Assembly (NCBI GenBank): GCA_964344235.1
Contig: CAYFMJ010000001.1
Coordinates: 192,001-256,000 of the forward strand
Length of the DNA: 64,000 bases
Origin: an uncultured Methanosarcinales archaeon
Lineage (GTDB): Archaea; Nanobdellota; Nanobdellia; Woesearchaeales; GW2011-AR9
Direction of reading: 5' to 3'
The notes under the pieces were generated by a model. The model was not told the DNA's origin. It ran no database searches and was given only the letters and a program-made list of their open reading frames with translations. Shown piece by piece: positions 8,801 to 58,967 of the stretch. The stretch's first letter is position 1. Each line of letters begins with the position of its first letter. A program made the translations under genes and the position numbers.

Positions 8801-11776
8801 TTAATATTCTCCCAGTGTTGATTTGTACGGTTCTAACAAGGCGCTAGCCGTTGTGTCGATTATTTTGGTGCCTCCCACTCCTGTTACCGTAAAAGAGCCA
8901 TCATTTGTAATTTCCCCGATATGAGCATGTTGCTGCTCAGCCATAATTGCTTCGAACCGTTCTTTGTTTTGAGGGGCAATTGTTACAAGAATTCTACCCT
9001 GGCTTTCGGAGTATAACTTACAGTCATTACGCGAAGCTGTTCCAGGAAGGTTTTCTAATGAAACGTCTACACCCAACATACCACCCATGGCTGTTTTAGC
9101 TAACGCAATAGCAAGACCACCCCGATGGACGCTTTTGGCAGAGGCTATAATGCCTTCCTCTACGGCTTGCTCATATGCTTGATAGACTGCTTTGTTTCTT
9201 GTAGCATTAACTTGTGGAACGCTGTTACCAATATACGCCTCGCCACATTGTTCCTCACCAACCATGGCGAAGTATTCAGAAGCGCCGAGTTCGTCATGTG
9301 TTTCTCCGAGTACGTACACTAAATCTCCCGCAAACTTTGCATCAAGCGATACTGCTTTGCGAGCATCTTGCATTACCCCAATAGAAGAGACGAGCAATGT
9401 TGGAGGAACAGAAACTTTCATGGGATTACCCTCTTCATCAAATCCTTTAAAGTCATTAAACATGCTGTCTTTGCCCGAGATGAAAGGGGTACCAAACGCA
9501 ACAGCTGTATCATAACAAGCTCTCACAGCTTCTTTAAGCTGTCCTAAACGTTCTGGTTCGTTAGAGCTACACCAACAAAAGTTGTCCATAAGAGCTAAGT
9601 GGTTCAGTGGGGCTCCTGCGACGACTGCATTTCTGATTGCAGTGTCGATTGCAGCAGCAGCCATATGATATGTATCAATGTCACTATAGCTTGGATTAAT
9701 GCCCTGTGATGTAACGACTGCTTTTTGTGAATCTAGAATTGGCCTTGTTACGGATGCATCTCCGTTGACTCTGCCTCGGCCCTGTAATGGTTTTATGACG
9801 GAACCACCCTGCACTTCGTGGTCGTATTGTCGTGAGATAAACTCGAAGCTTGTGATGTTTAGTCTTCCCAGCATGGAATGAAGAGAATCAGTTAAGTCCC
9901 CTAATTCGGCAATCTCTGGCTCTTCGTGCGTAGGTCTGGTATATGTTGTGTGCATCGGTCGTGGTGGGAGACCGTCGTGCAGAAAGTCTAAATCAAGCTC
10001 CGCTACTTTTTCTCCATGAAAGTAGGTGATACTTTTTCCTGAGTCTGTGAACTCCCCGATTACTGTTGCCTCGACGCCTCTACGTTGCATTAACGATTGA
10101 AAAGCAGGCCATTTCTCTGGTGGGACTGCGAGAGTCATACGTTCCTGTGCTTCAGAGATGTCGATTTCGTACGGAGCAAGTCCGGGATATTTTGAAGGTA
10201 CTCTATCAAGATGGTAAACACAACCCCCACTTGCTTTTGCCATTTCGTTAACAGAACAAGATAAACCTCCAGCACCGTTGTCAGTAATGTCGTTATACAA
10301 TGCTTGATCTCTCGCTTCTTTAACAACGGCATCACTTAATTTCTTTTGTGTAATTGGGTCACCAATTTGCACAGCTGTTGCCGGGCTACCGGAATCCATG
10401 GCTTCTGAAGAGAAAGTTGCTCCATGAATGCCATCTTTTCCTACCCTCCCTCCGATCATAACAATGTAATCCCCTGGCTGGGCTTGTTTTTCATGTGAAG
10501 GTCTGCCTGCACTCTCTCGTGGGATAAGACCAACGGTTCCTACAAACACTAGCGGCTTGCCTTTGTATCGTGCGTCGAATGTGACAAAACCTTGTGGGGT
10601 TGGTATGCCAGAACAATTTCCCCCTACATTAACTCCTGCAACAACACCCTCCATGATTTGGCGTGGTAAGAGCATCTCTTGTGTGAACTCTGGGCCTTTG
10701 TAGAGCGGGGTTGTATCACGGGGGTCAGCGAAGCAAAAACCGTACCTATTGATGATTGGTTTAGCACCTAAACCAAAACCAATCGTGTCCCGGTTAACTC
10801 CAACAATTCCCGTAATAGATCCTCCAAATGGATCGAGAGCAGAGGGGCTGTTATGCGTTTCTGCTTTATCTGTTACGAGAAAATCGTCATCGAAAATAAT
10901 TGCTCCGGAATTGTCCGTAAAAACTGACACACAGAAGTCTTCATTTCCTTTTTCTGCGCGTATTCTTTGTGTTGCCGCTTTGATGAACGTTCTGTATAGG
11001 CCGTCTGTAACCTCATCCATTGGATCAGCGAAAATTGTATGTTTACAATGTTCTGACCATGTTTGAGCAATTCTTTCAAGTTCAACATCAGTTGGGTTTC
11101 TGCCTTGTTCTCTAAAATAAGAGCGTATTGCATGCATGTATGTTAAGTCTAGCGCGAGTGGGCCTCTGCGAGTCCCATCCCCGTTAGAGATGCCTTTCTT
11201 TCCAATAAGTGTTAGTTCATCATCGCTGGCGTTGAGAATATCAACAATACTGGCAGAGGGTGCTGGACCTAGCCGCACTTCAGGAATAATGAGCCCCATG
11301 CCGCCCTCTCTTTGGAATTCGTTGTAGTTTCTAATGGTAATTCTTTGGATCAGCGGATTGGCGAGCGAATTTGCAATAAATGTAACATCACTTTCTGTTA
11401 AATCTCCCGAAAGAAACGTTATTTGTGAAGTATATGCTTCTGCAATGTGTTTGTTTCCAAGTAAGTCTTCGATCCCTTCTCTAGTTGTAGTACCGACGTT
11501 ATCCGTTACGCCTGGCAAGAATCCAACCTCAATTGCCCACTGGAAATCATCAGGAGCTTGAGGTGTGTCTACGGTTGCGTGTTGTGTTACAGGATTGGTA
11601 AGCATTGATGCGACAGAGTCTAGAGTATCCTCTTGTAGTGCCGAACCAATAGTGTACACGTCAACGATGTGTGTATCAGTGATCCTTTCAGAAAAACCAA
11701 GTGTTTCAATACGGCGCCTTCGTATTGCGGCCCTTGTATCTGGAATAATGGATCTTACCTCAATCCTATGGGCCAT
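8801..11776 (-). CDS. purL: FGAM synthase synthetase subunit with long (PurS-like) N-terminal region
   Basis: AQTWSEHCKH, ETHNSPSALDPFGG, DNGAGGL, SEAQERM, PFISGKDS; 991 aa. Confidence 0.95.
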   Translation of the reverse strand: MAHRIEVRSIIPDTRAAIRRRRIETLGFSERITDTHIVDVYTIGSALQEDTLDSVASMLTNPVTQHATVDTPQAPDDFQWAIEVGFLPGVTDNVGTTTREGIEDLLGNKHIAEAYTSQITFLSGDLTESDVTFIANSLANPLIQRITIRNYNEFQREGGMGLIIPEVRLGPAPSASIVDILNASDDELTLIGKKGISNGDGTRRGPLALDLTYMHAIRSYFREQGRNPTDVELERIAQTWSEHCKHTIFADPMDEVTDGLYRTFIKAATQRIRAEKGNEDFCVSVFTDNSGAIIFDDDFLVTDKAETHNSPSALDPFGGSITGIVGVNRDTIGFGLGAKPIINRYGFCFADPRDTTPLYKGPEFTQEMLLPRQIMEGVVAGVNVGGNCSGIPTPQGFVTFDARYKGKPLVFVGTVGLIPRESAGRPSHEKQAQPGDYIVMIGGRVGKDGIHGATFSSEAMDSGSPATAVQIGDPITQKKLSDAVVKEARDQALYNDITDNGAGGLSCSVNEMAKASGGCVYHLDRVPSKYPGLAPYEIDISEAQERMTLAVPPEKWPAFQSLMQRRGVEATVIGEFTDSGKSITYFHGEKVAELDLDFLHDGLPPRPMHTTYTRPTHEEPEIAELGDLTDSLHSMLGRLNITSFEFISRQYDHEVQGGSVIKPLQGRGRVNGDASVTRPILDSQKAVVTSQGINPSYSDIDTYHMAAAAIDTAIRNAVVAGAPLNHLALMDNFCWCSSNEPERLGQLKEAVRACYDTAVAFGTPFISGKDSMFNDFKGFDEEGNPMKVSVPPTLLVSSIGVMQDARKAVSLDAKFAGDLVYVLGETHDELGASEYFAMVGEEQCGEAYIGNSVPQVNATRNKAVYQAYEQAVEEGIIASAKSVHRGGLAIALAKTAMGGMLGVDVSLENLPGTASRNDCKLYSESQGRILVTIAPQNKERFEAIMAEQQHAHIGEITNDGSFTVTGVGGTKIIDTTASALLEPYKSTLGEY

Positions 11777-11884
11777 GTTTTTGTAAAATGAATTTATGTT
11801 ATAAAGTTTAGTGTTCTTGAATATATTGTTAGGAGATCCTCTACTTCAGAAATCATTAAATAGTTTGTTTTCTCTTTGTGATGC

Positions 11885-12076
11885 ATGGAACCGCTTTCAA
11901 TTGTTGGAATAATGATTCTGATTATCGTGGCGTTATTTCTGGGAAAAATTTTATCGATTTTGGGGAGAATTGTGTTTGTGGCTTTAATCATCGCATTGGT
12001 GTTGGTGTTTGCGTTTGGTATTTCGTTAAATCAAGTGGTTGATTGGGGTTTACAAGTTATTTTATTAGCGTTTTGA
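11885..12076 (+). CDS. Small membrane protein
   Basis: 63 aa, almost entirely hydrophobic, 2-3 TM segments. Confidence 0.6.
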   Translation: MEPLSIVGIMILIIVALFLGKILSILGRIVFVALIIALVLVFAFGISLNQVVDWGLQVILLAF

Positions 12077-51660: not shown

Positions 51661-52077
51661 ATGAGAAAAGTTTGGTTGTTGTTGGTTGTAGTATTGGCTT
51701 TTTCGGCCGGAGGTGTTGTGGTTGAAGATTCTTCGCTGTTTCCACACTTTACCACGTTCTTTTCTGATTTTTCTGGGTCTGTTGTATACGATGTTGTTGA
51801 TGTGATTAATAATGTTGAAGGAGAGGTTATTGAAGTGAGAATTACGGAAGAAGGGTTTGTGCCTTCTGAAGTTGTTGTAGGGAAAGGGCAAGAAATTGTG
51901 TGGAGGAATGAGCGGAAAACTAAATCGTTAGTGTATGGGATGAGGGAGATTGATGATTTGAGAAGTCCTTATTTATCTGAGGGAGATGTGTTTATCTGGT
52001 CTGTTTCTGAGTTGGGAAGTTATGTATATGTCGATGCAGTTACGATTGGAAGAACTGGGAAGATAATTGTTCGTTAA
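51661..52077 (+). CDS. Secreted cupredoxin-fold-like protein lacking type-1 Cu ligands
   Basis: Signal peptide; VRITEEGFVPSEVVVGKGQEIVWRNE; no Cys or His in the C-terminal loop. Confidence 0.65.
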   Translation: MRKVWLLLVVVLAFSAGGVVVEDSSLFPHFTTFFSDFSGSVVYDVVDVINNVEGEVIEVRITEEGFVPSEVVVGKGQEIVWRNERKTKSLVYGMREIDDLRSPYLSEGDVFIWSVSELGSYVYVDAVTIGRTGKIIVR

Positions 52078-52313
52078 GCTTTTGCTTTGGCGATGGCAGC
52101 TTCGATTTTTTTCTCATGGAAGCCAATGATTATCTCTTTATTAATTTCTAAGACTGGTGTTACTAACTGACTTGTTTTCTCAAGTAGGTCATCCCAGTAT
52201 TTACTTTCATCCATAACATCTAAGAATTCAAATTTGATCCGTTTTCGTTTAAGCCACTTTTGTAAGTCCATTGACCACTGACAACTGGGGCTTCCGTAGA
52301 GTTTGATATCCAT
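52074..52313 (-). CDS. Glutaredoxin/NrdH-like protein (CxxS)
   Basis: LYGSPSCQWS, TPVLEIN...IIGF. Confidence 0.85.
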   Translation of the reverse strand: MDIKLYGSPSCQWSMDLQKWLKRKRIKFEFLDVMDESKYWDDLLEKTSQLVTPVLEINKEIIIGFHEKKIEAAIAKAKA

Positions 52314-52716: not shown

Positions 52717-53798
52717 AGTTTACAATGAGAAGTACGCAGGAGAAAGTGTTTATTGTTCTTGTAGTGGTGGTGTTAGTTCTTGGTTCATTAAATGTAGTGA
52801 AAGCAAAGGGTTTGTTGATCCCCGAGCAACCAGGCATTATGATTGAAGAGGGGGTGGTTGAGTTAGATTCATTAACGCTTGAACAGAAAATTGCACAAAT
52901 GGTGATTGTGCATGGTGGTTTACACAACAGAGAGGCGTGGAAAAAGATGCAACTGGGTGGGATTCATCAGTTTGCTCTTGCATCACCGCAGTTGTTTAAG
53001 GATATTGTTGGATCATTTCAAGAGGATATGGAAATTCCATTTTTTGTGACAGCTGATTTAGAGGGGTGTTTAAACCCGTTTGCGGCTTTCCATAATTCAA
53101 CGTTTATCAGTGAGATTAGTAGTGTGGAACAAGCGTTTGAGAAAGGGAAGCAGGAAGGAGCATTTTTACGATCACTTGGATTTACATTGAACTTTGCACC
53201 GGTTGTTGATTTGGATGATCATATCTGGGATTGTCGTTCGTTTCCCGGAGGGCCAGCAGAAGTGGGAGAGTTAGCGGGGGCGTATGTTAATGGTTTACAG
53301 AGCCAAGGTGTTATTGCAACAGCAAAGCATTACCCAGGGAAGACATTAGTAATATTAGACCCTCATAAAGAGTTAGTAGTGGCAGAGATTGGTGAAGATG
53401 ACTTGCATCCCTATGAATACTTGGTGCAAGAGACGGATGTGGCAAGTATTATGGTGAGTCATTTGATTGTTTTTGGTGCACTTGATTCTTCGGGAGTTCC
53501 ATCTGTCGTTTCAGGAGAGGTTATTGGGAATTTACGGGAAGAGTATGGTGGATTAATTATTACGGATGACACAATGATGTTGGGTCTTAGAAAGTTTTTT
53601 GATACCGCTGATGAATTGTATGTTGCGGTGTTTCAGGCAGGGGCAGATTTAGTGATTAATTTTGATGAAGACCCCGAAGAAATTTATAGGATGATTCAGG
53701 TTGTTGCGAGTGCAGTTGAAAGTGGAGAGATTAGTCAAGAAGCGATTGATAATTCGGTAAGAAGAATTTTAGAAGCGAAAGGATTTATTGTTGTTTAA
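52713..53798 (+). CDS. Membrane-anchored GH3 beta-N-acetylhexosaminidase (NagZ-like)
   Basis: TADLEGG-like ADLEG, NFAPVVD, RSF, TAKHYPG, LDPH, IMVSH, ITDDTMM; ATGA overlap with the previous gene. Confidence 0.85.
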   Translation: MKFTMRSTQEKVFIVLVVVVLVLGSLNVVKAKGLLIPEQPGIMIEEGVVELDSLTLEQKIAQMVIVHGGLHNREAWKKMQLGGIHQFALASPQLFKDIVGSFQEDMEIPFFVTADLEGCLNPFAAFHNSTFISEISSVEQAFEKGKQEGAFLRSLGFTLNFAPVVDLDDHIWDCRSFPGGPAEVGELAGAYVNGLQSQGVIATAKHYPGKTLVILDPHKELVVAEIGEDDLHPYEYLVQETDVASIMVSHLIVFGALDSSGVPSVVSGEVIGNLREEYGGLIITDDTMMLGLRKFFDTADELYVAVFQAGADLVINFDEDPEEIYRMIQVVASAVESGEISQEAIDNSVRRILEAKGFIVV

Positions 53799-54540
53799 TT
53801 TTATTTGCTTGTGGTTCTACCTTCTTTTCTTTATACGTTGTTAGGGTTGTGTGGTGTAGTGCGATTGTTTGATTGTCTTCTAGCGGTTCCCAGATGATTT
53901 CTTGTAGTTGTGGGATAATTTCAGAACTTACAACGACCATCTCTTCAGTTCTGCCTAAAGACATTTGCAGGTATTTTTTGTGGGAACCTTTACGTATGGC
54001 GATAAATGATACCTCTTTATTTGAGAAGATAAAGTTTGAACTGGTATTGTTATTTAATGATTGCAATGCTGTTTTGATTGCTTCTGTTGCTTTTGCTGTT
54101 TGTAAATTCGTTAGGATGGAGTAAAATAATTGTTCAGAATCTGTTGAGCCCCTTGGCGTGAATTCTGGTGAGAATGGAATGGCCTCTTCAATCGTACCAT
54201 TGTGGCAGAAAACAAATTCATTCTTTTGGAATGGATGAGTGTTGGCCATACTCTTGTTCCCTACACTACCATAGCGAGCATGAATTATTGCTAGGGTTGT
54301 GTTGAGGTTGCGGAATTGTTCTACTAGTGGGTCTTCGAAGATTGGTTGCAGTGATTTGTGGATGTTCCATTCGCCGTTTTGTAAGAATGCGATACCCCAG
54401 CCGTCGGGATGTGTCCAGGAACCCAAGCCTTTTTCGCTATTATTTTCATGGAGCATGGTTTGGTCCCTCGCCATCTCAATAAGGCCTTCAAATAAGGGGT
54501 TTAGGTCCACGTTTCCTGTAGCAATAAGCATTCGACACAT
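53785..54540 (-). CDS. Class II glutamine amidotransferase (YafJ/EgtC/Dug3-like)
   Basis: MCRML (Cys2 nucleophile), HPDGWG, HARYGS, NTHPF, FCHNGTI, GSTDSE. Confidence 0.92.
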   Translation of the reverse strand: MCRMLIATGNVDLNPLFEGLIEMARDQTMLHENNSEKGLGSWTHPDGWGIAFLQNGEWNIHKSLQPIFEDPLVEQFRNLNTTLAIIHARYGSVGNKSMANTHPFQKNEFVFCHNGTIEEAIPFSPEFTPRGSTDSEQLFYSILTNLQTAKATEAIKTALQSLNNNTSSNFIFSNKEVSFIAIRKGSHKKYLQMSLGRTEEMVVVSSEIIPQLQEIIWEPLEDNQTIALHHTTLTTYKEKKVEPQANKIKQQ

Positions 54541-54677
54541 TTTGAATATAGTAAAGTGTATACTGGTATAATTGTTGTATTTAAATACTTTTCGATGTAG
54601 TGGTCTATATCTGTGTTTTTTCCCTTTGGCTGGCGTTTTTTGTTTCTTTTTTTGTTTCTGGGTAGAAATCGCGTTGT

Positions 54678-55289
54678 TTATTGTTGATTTGGCGTAGAAA
54701 AGAGGATCATTCTATGGTCTCTGTACTTTTTGGTTCGTAATGAGTCAAACGCGTCTTTCATGACGTTTTCGGGCACAGAGAGGCCGCCAAGAGCGGGATC
54801 AACGAGATGGAAGTAATTATTGTTGTATCCATGTATAATTATGTAATTTGAGGTGTTTCTCTTTTCATTACGGATGGGTTTGACGTTTAACCGTAGGAGG
54901 AGGATATTATTTTTTGAGAGTTCTTTTATTTCATTAAGTGTGATTGTTCGTTCTGTTATGGGGATATTGTTTGTTATTGCTGCTTTTCTGTGTTTATCTT
55001 CAGAGAATTCCGCGTGGTGGACGTCTTCTTTTGTGTAACGATAGAAACGGTAGTCGGGGAATGAGTAGTTTTGGGTTCCTACGACGATTTTTGGTTTGAG
55101 TTTGTGTTGGTGGGCATAGTTGGCTAGGGCGTAGATTGAAGAGGCTCTTGTTGGGAGGGTGGCAGTTTGGTGCCAGATATCAAATTCTTTTTCTTTTGTT
55201 TTTGGAATCTCTGGGTTGAAGTGATGAAGTACTGTTAATAGGGCAGAGGCTGCTGTGGTAAATGATGTTGATTGGATGTGCGGGATCAT
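54678..55289 (-). CDS. Peptidase C39-like (DUF3335-like) protein, catalytic residues substituted
   Basis: QSTSFTTAASAL (expected Q...FTC), E..IW..T, SNYIIIHG....HLVDP (expected H in place of N). Confidence 0.7.
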   Translation of the reverse strand: MIPHIQSTSFTTAASALLTVLHHFNPEIPKTKEKEFDIWHQTATLPTRASSIYALANYAHQHKLKPKIVVGTQNYSFPDYRFYRYTKEDVHHAEFSEDKHRKAAITNNIPITERTITLNEIKELSKNNILLLRLNVKPIRNEKRNTSNYIIIHGYNNNYFHLVDPALGGLSVPENVMKDAFDSLRTKKYRDHRMILFSTPNQQ

Positions 55290-55350
55290 TGTAGTGGGTA
55301 TAGTTGAGGTATATTAAAAATATCTTGTTTTTGAGTCACTTTGATTGAGT

Positions 55351-56091
55351 TCAATGTTCGGTTATTTCGAATGTAGTGTGGTTTATTGCAATTACTCTCT
55401 CAAAAGGTAATTCTTCCCAAGAAATACCGGGATAATGAAACTTCTCTGAGCTGATGATTAAACTTCCTTCTGTTCTTCCAATTTGCATTCTAAAGTAATT
55501 GGGGAGTGTTCTTGATGATGAATAGATGTAAGTATTTTCTTTGTTAGAAAAAATAATGTTGGAATTAGGTTTTAAATCTCGTCCATTAAACGCATCTTTG
55601 ATGGCTTCTTTAATAGGTAGGTTTTTACTTAGTATTGAAAGGAAGAACCTTTCAGAGTCCGTATCCCCCAAAGGTTTAAATTTTTTTTCATTAAATTCTA
55701 ATCCCTGTCTTATAGTCCCGTTGTGGCAGAAGATAGATTCTCTGTTTTGGAATGGGGCATTATTTTCTAATTTGTTTTCTCCAATTGACCGAAATCTTGC
55801 GTGTAGCATTACAAAATTTGTTTTAATTTTTTTAATCTCTTCAGCTTGCACATCTTCATATATTGGTCTTAACGACTTTTTTAAAATAAAATTATCTTTC
55901 TCTAGGAATGCCATTCCCCATCCATCTCTGTGTTTCGGTCCCCTGGTTAAAAACATCTCCTGCACAATTTTATCTGATAAAAGAGGAATCATGTTGGTGG
56001 TTATCTCCTTTTTATCTTCGGCCATATGTTTCATGCCTTCAAATAAATAGTTCAGATCTACCTCTCCTAAAGCAACTAGCATCCTACACAT
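55351..56091 (-). CDS. Second class II glutamine amidotransferase
   Basis: MCRML, HRDGWG, HARFRS, FCHNGTI, GDTDSE. Confidence 0.92.
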   Translation of the reverse strand: MCRMLVALGEVDLNYLFEGMKHMAEDKKEITTNMIPLLSDKIVQEMFLTRGPKHRDGWGMAFLEKDNFILKKSLRPIYEDVQAEEIKKIKTNFVMLHARFRSIGENKLENNAPFQNRESIFCHNGTIRQGLEFNEKKFKPLGDTDSERFFLSILSKNLPIKEAIKDAFNGRDLKPNSNIIFSNKENTYIYSSSRTLPNYFRMQIGRTEGSLIISSEKFHYPGISWEELPFERVIAINHTTFEITEH

Positions 56092-56092
56092 T

Positions 56093-57388
56093 TTATAATA
56101 ATGGCTTTAATTCCTCAAGCCCGGTTTTGAATCTCTCTGCCAAATATAAATTTGCCGCAGCTGATTGTTCGGGGGTTACAGCACTTCCGTTGTAAAGTGA
56201 AGCGTGCATTCTAAGGTGGTCCATAACATCGTCTGCGACGTTTCTCCTTGAACTAACCATCTGTGTGGCGGTGGCAAGATATGGCTGATCTCTTCTGGGT
56301 AGCCCTCCTGCCGCGAAGGTTAGTGCTTCTTGAACGTACATATTTACGAGCGGATCTTTAATCCCTCTTTCAACTGCGGATTGTTCTAATCTCTTTAACA
56401 TTGTGTAGTCTGGAAGGACGACTCCCTCTGGGCCAAAATAAAAAGGTACACTCCGTGATGAAGACCCAAAGCCATAATTATCATTAACTGTGACTGGTAG
56501 GCCCTCTCTGATAATCCTGTCGTGAACTCCTTTGCTAAGTGCTTGTATTGAAAGAAAAACGTCAAGGGGACAAGAATCTCCCCCTCTTTGTTCGATTGTT
56601 CCTTTTGGGGGGAGTGCTTCTTTTGGTTTGACTCTTAGTGTTCCATATATTGTGTCGTCGGGGTCAAATCCCATGCTCTCTAACTCTTCTTCACTTATTC
56701 CAGATAATGCGGCCCAGTTTCTGTGTCTTCTGCGTCCGTAACCCATTATTTCCTCGACAGAGAGAGGGTATTCTTCCAGTTGTGCGCCAAACCTTGGGTC
56801 TGCAAATAGCGTGTTTCGCAGTAAATGGACTCTGGAGCAGTTGAAACGAGTTTCACCCTCGTCGGAGATTGGGGATGTTGAGGCTAATGCGATCCACATG
56901 GGGTCTAACGCTTGAAATAAACGGTATTGGTCCAATAGTCTGCCTTCTACTTGTGAAGTATGGTTCTGTGTTCCTACAATCCCCACTAACCGAGATAGGC
57001 CTTCTACTCCAATCGTTCTATGGTAAAAGATTGATCTTTGGCGGTTTGCGACAGTTTTTCCCACTCCTGTTGTAAACCTGCTGCCGGGGACAACAACTAA
57101 ATCATTTTCATCAGCTATGGCAAGGGTTCTTGTTAGTAGTGGGTCCATTTGCTGGTGCTCTTGATGAATTGTTTCTGCACCTCCGGGGGGCCCATTTATT
57201 TCAATAACATCTAGGGCCGGCTCTGAGGAGTATTCTACTCGCCCGTCTGACAAAAAAACACCTTGTCCGTTTCTAGTGAAACCATCTCTCCCAACAATTC
57301 TCAATTCTAGCTCTGTTCCGGTAGTTGATACTACTTCTAAGCCTACTTCTTTGGGTGGTTCTCTAGTTTGTCCTGTTGCCAAATTCAT
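56093..57388 (-). CDS. GCS2/YbdK-family carboxylate-amine (gamma-glutamyl) ligase
   Basis: TGTELELRIV, VIEIN, IALASTSP, SR, YGTLRVKP, GTIEQRGGD. Confidence 0.8.
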   Translation of the reverse strand: MNLATGQTREPPKEVGLEVVSTTGTELELRIVGRDGFTRNGQGVFLSDGRVEYSSEPALDVIEINGPPGGAETIHQEHQQMDPLLTRTLAIADENDLVVVPGSRFTTGVGKTVANRQRSIFYHRTIGVEGLSRLVGIVGTQNHTSQVEGRLLDQYRLFQALDPMWIALASTSPISDEGETRFNCSRVHLLRNTLFADPRFGAQLEEYPLSVEEIMGYGRRRHRNWAALSGISEEELESMGFDPDDTIYGTLRVKPKEALPPKGTIEQRGGDSCPLDVFLSIQALSKGVHDRIIREGLPVTVNDNYGFGSSSRSVPFYFGPEGVVLPDYTMLKRLEQSAVERGIKDPLVNMYVQEALTFAAGGLPRRDQPYLATATQMVSSRRNVADDVMDHLRMHASLYNGSAVTPEQSAAANLYLAERFKTGLEELKPLL

Positions 57389-57596
57389 AAAAAATACGCG
57401 GTGGTTACTCTGTCCTTAGATTTCTTTAATCTACTTATTTAAATATCTTCCGATTCCAAAAAAAGTTGCTTTTTGTTGTTTTTGGCTCGTCTTGGGTGGT
57501 AATTAGTTTTTCTTTTGAACTTTCAACCAAAATATGGCCTATTTTTTTAATTTAATTTAGAAAATAATTTAAATAATTCTCCTTTTTGTTATTTTC

Positions 57597-58136
57597 ATGG
57601 AATTTACTAAAATTGACTCAAAAGAGATTATTAATTTGGGGGGTCAAGTGGCGTATATTGAAACGTATGCCAATGGTGATAGCGATATTAAGCGCAAGAA
57701 GATTAGTTTAGAAACACAGGAAGGAGTTATTGTTTTAGCCCGAAAGGGAGACACGTTAGTTATGGTTAACCACCATAGGCCGGAGTTTGGTGCTTTTTCC
57801 GTTGAGTTCCCGGGAGGAGGTCAAGAAAAGGGAGAGCAATCTATTTTGGCCGCAATGAGGGAATTCCAGGAAGAAACAGGTTTGATTGTTGAGAATGTAA
57901 AATCACTTGGCAGATTGTTTATCTCGGTTTACCTTAAGGGTGGATTAGAAGTTTTTGTGGGAAAGGTTGGTGATACTCCCTCTAAAGTTGAAAAAGATGC
58001 GGACGAATTTATTTTAGAAACATTATTTTTAACAAAAGGAGAAATAGAATCTCTTATTGCTAAGAATAAGATCACTTCAGCGCAAACTATTGCTGCGTTT
58101 TCTTTAGCAAAAACGAGGGGTTTTTTGGAGGCTTAA
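57597..58136 (+). CDS. Nudix hydrolase (ADP-ribose pyrophosphatase-like)
   Basis: EFPGGGQEKGEQSILAAMREFQEETG Nudix box. Confidence 0.92.
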   Translation: MEFTKIDSKEIINLGGQVAYIETYANGDSDIKRKKISLETQEGVIVLARKGDTLVMVNHHRPEFGAFSVEFPGGGQEKGEQSILAAMREFQEETGLIVENVKSLGRLFISVYLKGGLEVFVGKVGDTPSKVEKDADEFILETLFLTKGEIESLIAKNKITSAQTIAAFSLAKTRGFLEA

Positions 58137-58967
58137 ATGAGTAATAGTTATTTTGTTATATGTGCGCATAACGAGGAGGGTACTCTTGAAAGTGTGACAG
58201 CTGACTTGCTTGAAAGGACAGATTCACCAATTGTAATTGTTGACAATGCATCGACTGATGCAACACCAAGGATAATCAAACGATTGCAACAGTCCCCACG
58301 GGTTTATGGGGTAGTAGAACCAACTCCTGGAAAGGCTCTGGCGCTAAGAGCTGGCTTTAAGTATGCACTAGCAAATGGGGCTGCTAATATTGCGACAATG
58401 GATGGTGATGGTGAACATCGTCCTGAACAAATGGTAGGCTTGATGGAAGCTCACGTTCTTGGGGATTATCCTGTCACAATTGGGACGCGATTTGGGAGTG
58501 TAGATGAGATGGCGGAAAAAGATCGTATTATTGCCAAAGCTATTGAAAGATTGACTGGAACGTTCCCCATTGATCCGAGATGTGGTGGTCGTGCATATAC
58601 TGTCAGTGTTTTAGCTCAATTATTGCCTGAATGTCTCTCAAGGACATATGGCTTGGAGGCTGAGCTTTGTTACTTGTCGCTTGATGCTGGAGAAGCAGTG
58701 CAATTCTACTCCCTTGACAATATTTACATCCGTGATAGGATCCAGCTTGAAGCAGCTCCACCTGGTTTGGAGGATTGTTCAAGTTCTGAATTAATTGATT
58801 TATATCGGGTGTTTGGCCGAGGCGACCTCCAAGCAGGAAAAAAACTTCTTGCTGCACATGATCTATTGAACGAAGCTTTTACGACGGGAACATCGTTTTT
58901 TGGTGATGTTGAAGCAGCAGGGGATAATTACGTTAAAAGAGGCAGTGTTACTGCTCCTTCAGCGTAA
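58137..58967 (+). CDS. Glycosyltransferase family 2
   Basis: AHNEE, VDNASTDAT, GKALALRAG, MDGDGEH, GGRAY. Confidence 0.9.
   Translation: MSNSYFVICAHNEEGTLESVTADLLERTDSPIVIVDNASTDATPRIIKRLQQSPRVYGVVEPTPGKALALRAGFKYALANGAANIATMDGDGEHRPEQMVGLMEAHVLGDYPVTIGTRFGSVDEMAEKDRIIAKAIERLTGTFPIDPRCGGRAYTVSVLAQLLPECLSRTYGLEAELCYLSLDAGEAVQFYSLDNIYIRDRIQLEAAPPGLEDCSSSELIDLYRVFGRGDLQAGKKLLAAHDLLNEAFTTGTSFFGDVEAAGDNYVKRGSVTAPSA

What the first reader, a model, noticed from the sequence alone, without database searches (positions are those of the whole stretch)
53785..57388. Candidate gamma-glutamyl 'ligate and release' system: GCS2 ligase, two class-II amidotransferases and a dead C39-like peptidase
Seen: four co-oriented minus-strand genes. 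GCS2/YbdK ligase (56093-57388) sits 1 nt from a Cys2 GATase-II (55351-56091), followed by a DUF3335/C39-like protein lacking its catalytic Cys and His, then a second GATase-II. Known: GCS2 enzymes form gamma-Glu amide bonds. EgtC and Dug3-type GATase-II enzymes cleave them, and EgtA+EgtC pair this way in ergothioneine synthesis. DUF3335 is typically linked to RimK-like peptide ligases. Inference: no egtB, egtD or gshB is present in the window, so this looks like a different pathway. It could be reversible glutamylation of a small amine or thiol, or of a peptide/protein presented by the inactive papain-fold subunit. Such a pathway is unexpected in a biosynthetically reduced DPANN-type genome.
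Basis: partly seen in the sequence, partly recalled or inferred. Interest (0 to 1): 0.8.

Follow-up and report, generated by a model that had tools for sequence, protein, structure and literature searches.

The report
Archaeal gamma-glutamyl ligase–amidase gene island
A tiny DPANN archaeon has a glutathione-type amide-bond ligase coupled to an amide-cutting enzyme, a second copy of that enzyme and a catalytically dead peptidase look-alike. This is one version of a variable, uncharacterised locus whose constant core is the amidase plus a small glutaredoxin, which points to thiol-peptide metabolism.

Summary
The four minus-strand genes are real, at the stated coordinates. P0001 is a very divergent GCS2/YbdK-fold ligase: no Pfam hit on its own, but family, profile and fold all agree. 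P0002 and P0004 are Cys2 Ntn class-II amidotransferase-type proteins of the YafJ/EgtC kind. P0003 is a DUF3335/C39-fold protein with Cys replaced by Thr12 and His by Asn148.

They are not one fixed four-gene system. In 101 genomes of the same family, the ligase occurs with the amidase in 32 of 33 genomes. It usually sits directly upstream, with overlapping or near-overlapping genes.

The amidase is commoner (62 genomes). In the simplest genomes it sits at the same site, followed only by a small glutaredoxin. The C39-like gene (44 genomes) is an older resident and also occurs without either partner.

On a ligase tree, this clade is nested among ligases partnered with glutathione-synthetase-like ATP-grasp genes. 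I found no EgtB, EgtD, GshB, GGT or CysK in the genome.

Best reading (about 0.5): a gamma-glutamyl (thiol) peptide synthetase/amidohydrolase module. The role of the dead peptidase is unresolved.

The scan found the same system before on other DNA (e1-702011, e1-701953). I class it as a new variant of a known kind, of moderate interest.

The parts
56093..57388 (-). Divergent GCS2/YbdK-fold carboxylate-amine ligase (P0001, 431 aa) with a family-specific C-terminal helical region of about 100 aa
   Evidence: No Pfam hit alone. 50 of 64 relatives hit PF04107. Family profile vs YbdK 1r8g: 1.3e-12. AF2 model pLDDT 93.7; Foldseek best hits 2gwc, 1tt4 and 1r8g at about 1e-12. Conserved E26, E28, E63, H143, R186, R252, E266 and R268 are present; H141 is Gln.
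55351..56091 (-). Ntn class-II amidotransferase-type amidohydrolase, copy 1 (P0002, 246 aa), translationally coupled to the ligase
   Evidence: PF13230 1.6e-17. Best PDB matches 1te5 (7e-8) and EgtC 4zfj (7e-4). Has Cys2, R99, N124-G125 and D145. 1-nt gap after the ligase stop. Long branch on the amidase tree.
54678..55289 (-). DUF3335/C39-fold pseudo-peptidase (P0003, 203 aa, pI 9.6, no Cys)
   Evidence: PF11814 2.8e-13. AF2 model pLDDT 95.5. Foldseek hits: PeiR, LahT150, the phytochelatin-synthase-like Alr0975 and PCAT1. T12 sits at the Cys position, N148 at the His position, D164 is kept. 173 relatives at E<=1e-3; the 120 listed are 53-66% identical and are mostly from Woesearchaeota/Nanoarchaeota records.
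53785..54540 (-). Ntn class-II amidotransferase-type amidohydrolase, copy 2 (P0004, 251 aa)
   Evidence: PF13230 1e-21. Best PDB match 1te5 at 2.9e-11; aligns to the GlmS glutaminase domain across the Arg, Asn-Gly and Asp motifs. Has Cys2, R89, N114-G115 and D134. 43% identical to copy 1.
52074..52313 (-). Small glutaredoxin-family protein (79 aa, CQWS). It is the conserved downstream partner of the amidase in relatives; here a convergent GH3 plus 116-aa gene pair separates the two.
   Evidence: PF00462 1.5e-8. In 9 amidase-only genomes the amidase is followed on the same strand by this glutaredoxin, with gaps of 2-84 nt in 8 of them.
57436..57445 (-). TATA-box-like palindrome TATTTAAATA, 48 nt upstream of the ligase start
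   Evidence: One of only two occurrences in the 64-kb window; 0.18 expected by chance. Promoter function is inferred.
54578..54587 (-). Same TATTTAAATA element, 38 nt upstream of the second amidase start
   Evidence: Promoter function is inferred.
55310..55323 (-). A/T-rich TATA-like stretch 21-34 nt upstream of the C39-like start
   Evidence: Read by eye from the sequence. Inferred only.

Best explanation
The locus is one version of a variable gene island. The window's archaeal family (Woesearchaeota-type DPANN) keeps this island between the S3Ae/metallophosphoesterase genes and a GH3/glutaredoxin group.

Core: an EgtC/Dug3/YafJ-type Ntn amidohydrolase. In the simplest genomes it forms a two-gene unit with a small glutaredoxin.

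Ligase: added in about a third of the genomes and almost always placed directly upstream of an amidase gene. It descends from ligases that are partnered with glutathione-synthetase-like ATP-grasp enzymes. It therefore most likely uses ATP to join the gamma-carboxyl of glutamate to an amino acid, of the gamma-Glu-Cys type.

Amidase: most likely cleaves gamma-glutamyl amide bonds. Its substrate could be the ligase product, a derivative of it, or scavenged glutathione-type peptides. The effect would be to release the amine or Cys moiety, or to control the pool, as in EgtA/EgtC, yeast Dug2-Dug3 or glutathionylspermidine synthetase/amidase.

The window holds two such units back to back (LIG-GAT1 and C39 then GAT2), probably as three transcripts.

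C39-like protein: an older resident of the site that cannot be a Cys-His protease. Its role is unresolved; it may be a non-catalytic binding partner of the amidase.

Shown here: families, folds, catalytic residues, linkage statistics, gene order and tree topology. Inferred: every substrate, the direction of flux, the thiol connection, and any physical complex.
For: Identities.

Ligase-amidase linkage: in 101 genomes of the family the ligase is found in 33, of which 32 also have the amidase and 27 have it within 5 kb. Spacing is -86 to +41 nt in 13 loci, mostly -16 to +6.

Amidase as core: it is present in 62 of 101 genomes. In 9 amidase-only genomes it lies at the same site followed by a glutaredoxin, with gaps of 2-84 nt in 8 of them.

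Ligase ancestry: on a tree rooted with the FGase-linked type, the family's amidase-linked clade (support 100) is sister to a clade of GshB-linked ligases, and the next outgroup also contains GshB-linked ligases. The partners match glutathione synthase models (PF02955 1e-37; PRK05246 1.5e-42, below cut-off) or the GshF C-terminal ATP-grasp (4e-52). Two genomes of the family have ligase - GS-like ATP-grasp - (C39) - amidase in tight order (L095, L099).

Slot argument: other ligase subtypes are paired with amidohydrolases of unrelated folds, which cannot donate ammonia (Amidohydro_2, FGase).

Small-molecule hints: an EamA transporter overlaps the ligase end in L098.

Genome context: I found no GGT and no CysK-type cysteine synthase, but five glutaredoxin-family genes above cut-off in 1.19 Mb.

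Precedent: the class-II GATase complex Dug2p-Dug3p cleaves and transfers the gamma-glutamyl group of glutathione (PMC6508711).
Against: No substrate is known and no sequence feature identifies Cys as the acceptor. P0001 and P0002 sit on long branches, so their specificity may have shifted.

A ligase and a hydrolase for the same bond in one transcript would be a futile cycle, unless an unknown step or some regulation lies between them.

Archaeal glutaredoxin-fold proteins need not use glutathione. The window's copy is monothiol (CQWS) and is separated from GAT2 by two genes on the other strand.

All linkage counts come from related, syntenic genomes, so they overstate independence.

The amidase tree does not separate ligase-linked from C39-linked copies.

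The GS-like partners score below NCBIfam equivalog cut-offs.
Confidence: 0.5

Rival explanations
1. Two-subunit glutamine-dependent amidoligase. The Ntn protein is a true glutaminase that passes ammonia to the GS-fold ligase. The ligase activates some carboxylate with ATP and turns it into a carboxamide, as MurT/GatD or AsnB do with other folds.
For: The 1-nt or overlapping spacing of ligase and amidase is typical of obligate two-subunit enzymes. Both amidases keep the full glutamine-binding set: Cys2, Arg, Asn-Gly and Asp. P0004 scores as well against glmS (1.4e-12) as against EgtC (3.7e-12). GS-fold enzymes use ammonia as a natural nucleophile (general knowledge).
Against: The amidase occurs without the ligase in 30 of 62 genomes. 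In 9 of these its only same-strand partner at the site is a glutaredoxin. The best structural and sequence relatives are the free-standing YafJ/EgtC group. Sister ligase types pair with hydrolases that cannot donate ammonia. The ligase's ancestry is with GshB partners.
Confidence: 0.15
2. Salvage island for host-derived peptides. The genes mainly break down and re-use imported gamma-glutamyl or D-Glu peptides such as glutathione or muropeptide stems. The neighbouring NagZ-like GH3 is part of this; the amidases free glutamate, and the ligase re-uses the pieces.
For: A GH3 NagZ-like gene (PF00933 1e-40) is a constant neighbour. Other versions of the island hold a Ddl-like ligase, a Glu racemase, a class-I GATase/C26, amidohydrolases, an opine dehydrogenase and AlaDH-like genes. 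I found no CysK or GGT in a 96%-complete genome. The organism is a reduced DPANN.
Against: GH3 is on the opposite strand and is part of the syntenic flank even where the island is empty of these genes. A biosynthetic ATP-dependent ligase with GS-like partners argues for synthesis. No peptide importer is present in the window's island.
Confidence: 0.15
3. Reversible protein or peptide glutamylation. The ligase adds Glu to, or joins via a Glu on, a protein or ribosomal peptide that the dead papain-fold protein binds. The amidase removes it, in a Pup/PafA/Dop-like or RimK-like manner.
For: Where ligase and C39-like gene are both present, they are within 5 kb in 21 of 22 genomes. PafA and Dop share the fold distantly (Foldseek about 1e-3). 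DUF3335 is said to be linked or fused to peptide-ligase-type domains (PMC10318531). The C39-like protein is very conserved and basic.
Against: The fold and profile are far closer to GCL/YbdK than to PafA. The C39-like gene is usually separated from the ligase by 129-367 nt. It stands alone in 7 genomes of the family and in most genomes of the order that have it. Partners are GS-like ATP-grasps and a transporter. No candidate tag or substrate gene is visible.
Confidence: 0.1

Closest known systems
EgtA / EgtC of actinobacterial ergothioneine biosynthesis
   Same: A GCS2-type gamma-glutamyl ligase together with a free-standing Cys2 Ntn class-II GATase-fold amidohydrolase that later removes the glutamyl group. 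EgtC structures are among the few PDB sequence hits of P0002.
   Different: No EgtB or EgtD in the genome. TIGR03442 scores are 38 and 46 bits against a cut-off of 219. The ligase is a separate, very divergent clade. There are two amidase copies, a glutaredoxin partner and a dead C39-like neighbour.
GshA/GshB glutathione synthesis, including the haloarchaeal GCS2-type GshA
   Same: Same ligase fold and motif set. Sister clades of this ligase are followed by glutathione-synthase-like ATP-grasp genes.
   Different: The window's genome has no GshB-type gene; its only ATP-grasp hit is a RimK on contig 15. An amidase takes the partner's place. The activity is untested.
Yeast (Dug2p-Dug3p)2 glutathione degradosome
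   Same: A class-II GATase-fold subunit cleaves or transfers the gamma-glutamyl group of glutathione and gamma-Glu peptides (PMC6508711). It works with a peptidase-fold partner; that Dug2p carries an M20-type peptidase domain is from my own knowledge.
   Different: The partner folds are unrelated (papain-like here). No physical complex is shown. The system is archaeal and operon-encoded, with a ligase attached.
Glutathionylspermidine synthetase/amidase (GspSA) and trypanothione synthetase-amidase
   Same: A synthetase and an amidase for the same thiol-conjugate amide bond are kept together, and the amidase has a papain-like (CHAP) fold (own knowledge).
   Different: There the ligase is an ATP-grasp and the papain-fold domain is the active amidase. 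Here the papain-fold protein is dead and an Ntn enzyme is the likely amidase.
C39 double-glycine peptidases, phytochelatin-synthase-like Alr0975, and PeiR pseudomurein endoisopeptidase
   Same: Best structural neighbours of P0003 (Foldseek 1e-5 to 3e-4, TM about 0.5). Alr0975 forms a gamma-Glu-Cys acyl-enzyme from glutathione.
   Different: P0003 and its whole family lack the Cys/His pair. Instead they have other invariant residues: PTR 46-48, PDYRF 78-82, R133, N135 and K188.

Membership tests
GCS2 / YbdK carboxylate-amine ligases (PF04107) | The protein itself matches the family model above its cut-off | tested here: not met
   P0001 has no Pfam hit at E<=0.01. NCBIfam YbdK gives 15.4 bits against a cut-off of 425.
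GCS2 / YbdK carboxylate-amine ligases (PF04107) | Homologous family matches the model; profile-level relation to a solved member | tested here: met
   50 of 64 relatives hit PF04107, best 2.5e-14. The profile of A2 hits YbdK 1r8g at 1.3e-12 and plant GCL at 5e-11.
GCS2 / YbdK carboxylate-amine ligases (PF04107) | GS/GCL-type fold | tested here: met
   AF2 pLDDT 93.7, pTM 0.92. Foldseek best hits 2gwc, 1tt4 and 1r8g at E about 1e-12, probability 1.00.
GCS2 / YbdK carboxylate-amine ligases (PF04107) | Conserved acidic, His and Arg residues of the metal/ATP/glutamate site | tested here: met
   E26, E28, E63, H143, R186, R252, E266 and R268 are present. The nearly invariant H141 is Gln here and in one other close relative. 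Assignment of individual roles is inferred from family knowledge.
GCS2 / YbdK carboxylate-amine ligases (PF04107) | ATP-dependent gamma-Glu-amine ligation | not testable with these tools
   Needs an enzyme assay.
Free-standing class-II (Ntn) GATase-fold amidohydrolases, YafJ/EgtC type (PF13230) | Model match above cut-off | tested here: met
   63.8 and 77.5 bits against a cut-off of 23.
Free-standing class-II (Ntn) GATase-fold amidohydrolases, YafJ/EgtC type (PF13230) | N-terminal Cys nucleophile directly after Met | tested here: met
   Both start MCRM. 21 of the 22 family copies collected start MCR[MI]; the other has the same motif six residues into its called ORF.
Free-standing class-II (Ntn) GATase-fold amidohydrolases, YafJ/EgtC type (PF13230) | Glutamyl-binding Arg, Asn-Gly oxyanion hole, Asp | tested here: met
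   R99, N124-G125 and D145 in P0002; R89, N114-G115 and D134 in P0004. P0004 aligns to the corresponding GlmS motifs (HTR, HNG, TDTE) in 1xff.
Free-standing class-II (Ntn) GATase-fold amidohydrolases, YafJ/EgtC type (PF13230) | No fused synthase domain | tested here: met
   246 and 251 aa, a single domain.
EgtC proper (TIGR03442) and the ergothioneine pathway | Equivalog score, and EgtB plus EgtD in the genome | tested here: not met
   37.9 and 46.1 bits against a cut-off of 218.65. PF10017 and PF03781 hits are a generic methyltransferase and GldK-like proteins; there is no egtB model hit.
Peptidase C39 / DUF3335 (PF11814) | Model match and papain-like fold | tested here: met
   PF11814 50.3 bits against a cut-off of 25. 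AF2 pLDDT 95.5. Foldseek finds C39 domains, PeiR and Alr0975.
Peptidase C39 / DUF3335 (PF11814) | Catalytic Cys and His (active peptidase) | tested here: not met
   T12 aligns with the LahT150 Cys and N148 with its His; D164 is kept. Among 64 relatives the Cys position is T in 47 and C in 15, and the His position is N in 56 and H in 1. None has both.
Glutathione biosynthesis (gshA + gshB) | A GshB-type ATP-grasp gene with the ligase | tested here: not met
   The own genome's only hit is a RimK on contig 15, paired with a PF05618 protein. The feature is met in sister clades and in two genomes of the same family.

The most novel reading that the evidence does not exclude
The Cys/His-less papain-fold protein is the substrate-recognition subunit of a new heteromeric gamma-glutamyl amidase/transferase (Ntn catalytic subunit plus pseudo-peptidase, like Dug3 with Dug2). 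The ligase, amidase and glutaredoxin together run a previously unknown gamma-glutamyl-thiol cycle in DPANN archaea: Cys is scavenged from host glutathione-type peptides and rebuilt as the cell's own thiol. Alternatively, the same parts reversibly gamma-glutamylate a protein.
Probability: 0.12. Interest if true: 0.8.

Novelty: new variant of a known kind. Interest (0 to 1): 0.5.

Why it matters
Low-molecular-weight thiols of archaea outside the haloarchaea are poorly known. A 2020 review found GshA-family hits in DPANN but no archaeal GshB (PMC7278568).

This locus and its relatives suggest that many Woesearchaeota-type archaea do carry glutathione-type chemistry: a GCS2-type ligase, GS-like ATP-grasp enzymes in some lineages, a Dug3/EgtC-like amidase and a dedicated glutaredoxin. 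I found no cysteine synthase or GGT in this genome, so the amidase could be how these symbionts obtain cysteine.

The locus also offers a clean natural series for working out what a widespread, highly conserved pseudo-peptidase family (DUF3335) does: amidase alone; with the pseudo-peptidase; with the ligase; with ATP-grasp enzymes.

Tried and rejected
- The search for related loci failed or found nothing for the ligase in genome contigs and metagenome contigs. I used the genome search plus fetch from genomes instead.
- The Iyer et al. 2009 amidoligase paper and Kaur et al. 2012 (Dug2/Dug3) are not held.
- A first order-wide survey suggested that the ligase and the C39-like gene do not go together. 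This was misleading: the link only shows inside the window's own family.
- I first took His153 for the catalytic His. Alignment to LahT150 shows that the catalytic position is Asn148.
- An amidase tree did not resolve ligase-linked from C39-linked clades, so the two copies cannot be assigned separate roles.
- Ergothioneine pathway: rejected.
- A link to the genome's RimK: rejected. It lies on another contig with a PF05618 partner.

Full report
**Observation**

The window is contig 1, 192001-256000, of a 1.19-Mb, 96%-complete genome. Its relatives' proteins come from records named Woesearchaeota or Nanoarchaeota.

- P0002 and P0004 start MCRM and match PF13230. Their best solved relatives are the YafJ-like 1te5, EgtC, and the GlmS glutaminase domain. 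The glutamyl-binding Arg, the Asn-Gly oxyanion pair and the Asp are all present.
- P0003 matches DUF3335.
- P0001 has no Pfam hit alone and only one close relative in a word-indexed search. A full HMMER scan of 1.84 billion representatives gave 113 relatives. Of 64 aligned relatives, 50 hit GCS2. Their profile hits YbdK at 1.3e-12. A pLDDT 93.7 model finds plant GCL and YbdK first, and PafA/Dop and glutamine synthetases only at about 1e-3.

For the ligase, however, this needed profile and fold evidence.

**The dead peptidase**

A pLDDT 95.5 model has a papain-like fold. Its nearest solved folds are the pseudomurein endoisopeptidase PeiR, double-glycine C39 domains and the phytochelatin-synthase-like Alr0975.

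Profile alignment to LahT150 places Thr12 at the nucleophile and Asn148 at the His, with Asp164 retained. In 64 relatives the two positions are T (47) or C (15), and N (56) or H (1). Cys and His never occur together. Other residues are invariant instead: PTR 46-48, PDYRF 78-82, R133, N135 and K188. The family is therefore a conserved pseudo-peptidase with some other constrained site.

**Is it one system?**

A first order-wide sample (151 genomes) suggested not:

- The ligase family occurs in 33 genomes, the C39-like gene in 25 and the P0004-like amidase in only 6, with little overlap.
- The C39-like gene stands beside S3Ae/metallophosphoesterase or MoxR/VWA genes.

That sample also showed two ligase types.

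- Type B (441-494 aa) follows an FGase-family amidohydrolase.
- Type A (383-403 aa, the window's type) is followed by a glutathione-synthase-like ATP-grasp and often by an Amidohydro_2 protein.

Inside the window's own family the picture changes. In 101 genomes, the ligase is found in 33, the C39-like gene in 44 and the amidase in 62.

| Pair | Genomes with both | Within 5 kb |
|---|---|---|
| Ligase + amidase | 32 (of 33 ligase genomes) | 27 |
| Ligase + C39-like | 22 | 21 |
| C39-like + amidase | 36 | 30 |

Everything lies in one variable island between metallophosphoesterase-S3Ae and GH3/117-aa/glutaredoxin. The versions seen are:

- amidase → glutaredoxin only (9 loci; gaps of 2-84 nt in 8);
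- C39 alone;
- C39 → amidase;
- C39 → ligase → amidase (the commonest ligase-bearing version);
- ligase → amidase;
- ligase → GS-like ATP-grasp → (C39) → amidase;
- ligase → EamA → ATP-grasp-like → C39 → amidase;
- ligase → amidase → C39 → (193 aa) → amidase, in G233, which is nearly the window's order;
- amidase → C39 → ligase → amidase, in G471;
- Ddl-like ligase → Glu racemase → class-I GATase → C39 → amidase, in G310.

Ligase → amidase spacing is -86 to +41 nt, mostly -16 to +6. C39 → ligase spacing is 129-367 nt.

These genomes are kin and the flanks are syntenic, so the counts overstate independence. Persistence of the adjacencies through several rearrangements is the better argument.

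**Window-specific anatomy**

The window combines a ligase-amidase unit (1-nt spacer) with a C39-then-amidase unit. The palindrome TATTTAAATA occurs only twice in 64 kb (0.18 expected), 48 nt before the ligase start and 38 nt before the GAT2 start. A third A/T-rich box precedes the C39-like gene. Three transcripts are therefore likely, though this is inferred.

Third-position GC skew on the coding strand:

| Gene | GC3 skew |
|---|---|
| C39-like | -0.70 (matches the local strand bias) |
| GAT2 | -0.33 |
| Ligase | -0.24 |
| GAT1 | -0.05 |

This fits the C39-like gene being the old resident and the ligase-GAT1 unit a later arrival. It is weak evidence. Both P0001 and P0002 sit on long branches.

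**What it most likely does**

Four lines point to small-molecule gamma-glutamyl, probably thiol, chemistry.

1. On a tree rooted with type B, the family's amidase-linked ligases form a clade (support 100). It is sister to a clade made up of GshB-linked ligases, and the next outgroup also contains GshB-linked ligases. Two different GS-like ATP-grasp types have been recruited after this ligase: GshB-like, and GshF-C-terminal-like at 4e-52.
2. In the sister types, the slot next to the ligase is filled by hydrolases of unrelated folds. This favours a hydrolase role for the Ntn protein over an ammonia-donor role.
3. The amidase's own constant partner is a glutaredoxin.
4. In a 96%-complete genome I found no GGT and no CysK-type cysteine synthase, but five glutaredoxin-family genes above cut-off.

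Precedents are EgtA/EgtC, and the class-II GATase Dug3p, which with Dug2p cleaves and transfers the gamma-glutamyl group of glutathione (PMC6508711). Glutathionylspermidine synthetase/amidase shows that a synthetase and an amidase for one bond can be kept together (own knowledge).

The standard ergothioneine pathway is excluded. So is gshB in this genome.

I put about 0.5 on a gamma-glutamyl peptide synthetase/amidohydrolase module, and less on the thiol identity.

The rivals are a Gln-dependent amidoligase (0.15), a peptide-salvage island with the GH3 (0.15) and reversible protein glutamylation presented by the pseudo-peptidase (0.1).

The role of the C39-like protein remains open. It is linked by position, but it is also found without either enzyme.

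**Comparison and novelty**

The parts are known kinds. The combination appears undescribed: a divergent GshA-derived ligase, a Dug3/EgtC-like amidase with a glutaredoxin, and a DUF3335 pseudo-peptidase, in a variable DPANN island.

My literature searches were few and narrow. One found a single paper mentioning DUF3335. A review states that no archaeal GshB hits are apparent (PMC7278568).

Earlier notes of this scan describe the same system in other genomes (e1-702011, e1-701953), and my independent survey agrees with them.

I class it as a new variant of a known kind, with interest about 0.5.

Noticed in passing
L041, L042, L043, L056, L072-L075 (other families of the same order): Type-A GCS2 ligase is followed by a glutathione-synthase-like ATP-grasp (PF02955 1e-37; PRK05246 1.5e-42, below cut-off) and often by an Amidohydro_2 protein, with a divergent Lrp/AsnC-type regulator in some loci. 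This is a candidate glutathione-type pathway in DPANN archaea; a 2020 review lists no archaeal GshB (PMC7278568).
   Followed up: partly
L049, L051, L052, L054, L055, L060: A second ligase subtype (441-494 aa; the one checked, in L054, has no Pfam hit) is regularly preceded on the same strand by an FGase-family (PF05013) amidohydrolase. This is another ligase-amidase pair of unknown substrate.
   Followed up: partly
L081:2491-6365 (G310): Five co-oriented genes: Ddl-like ATP-grasp, Asp/Glu racemase, class-I GATase/C26, C39-like pseudo-peptidase, Ntn amidase. The gap between the last two is 3 nt, and a glutaredoxin follows.
   Followed up: partly
L064:9003-10142, L066:8926-10011, L090:1685-4153, L091:2029-4967: Other island versions carry an AlaDH/PNT-family dehydrogenase right after the amidase. 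Others carry an opine dehydrogenase plus Amidohydro_1, or an Amidohydro_3 plus ATP-grasp_3, upstream of C39-amidase. The island collects amino-acid and peptide-modifying enzymes.
   Followed up: no
G000 contig 15 (L079:7707-9127 and 9950-11926): The genome's only RimK-type ATP-grasp (PF08443 5e-48) is preceded by a 113-aa PF05618 retropepsin-like protein and lies next to an integrase-like gene. Downstream is a 658-aa fusion of an amino-acid permease with a SAM methyltransferase domain.
   Followed up: no
window 57597-58967: A NUDIX hydrolase gene and a GT2 glycosyltransferase gene lie between the ligase and S3Ae. They have no counterpart at this position in the relatives compared, so the island has a window-specific insertion.
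   Followed up: no
whole window: There is a strong strand-specific compositional bias. Third-position GC skew is +0.3 to +0.6 for plus-strand genes and down to -0.70 for the minus-strand C39-like gene. Cumulative GC skew rises across nearly all 64 kb.
   Followed up: partly
G000 genome: Five glutaredoxin-family genes score above cut-off in 1.19 Mb, while I found no CysK-type cysteine synthase and no gamma-glutamyl transpeptidase.
   Followed up: partly
L085:3632-4942 and homologues in L062, L067, L098: A recurrent 433-444-aa protein lies upstream of the C39-like gene or the ligase. It has only faint ATP-grasp/eukaryotic GSH-synthase-like Pfam hits (E 0.003-0.009) and no NCBIfam hit. It may be another unrecognised ligase.
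   Followed up: no
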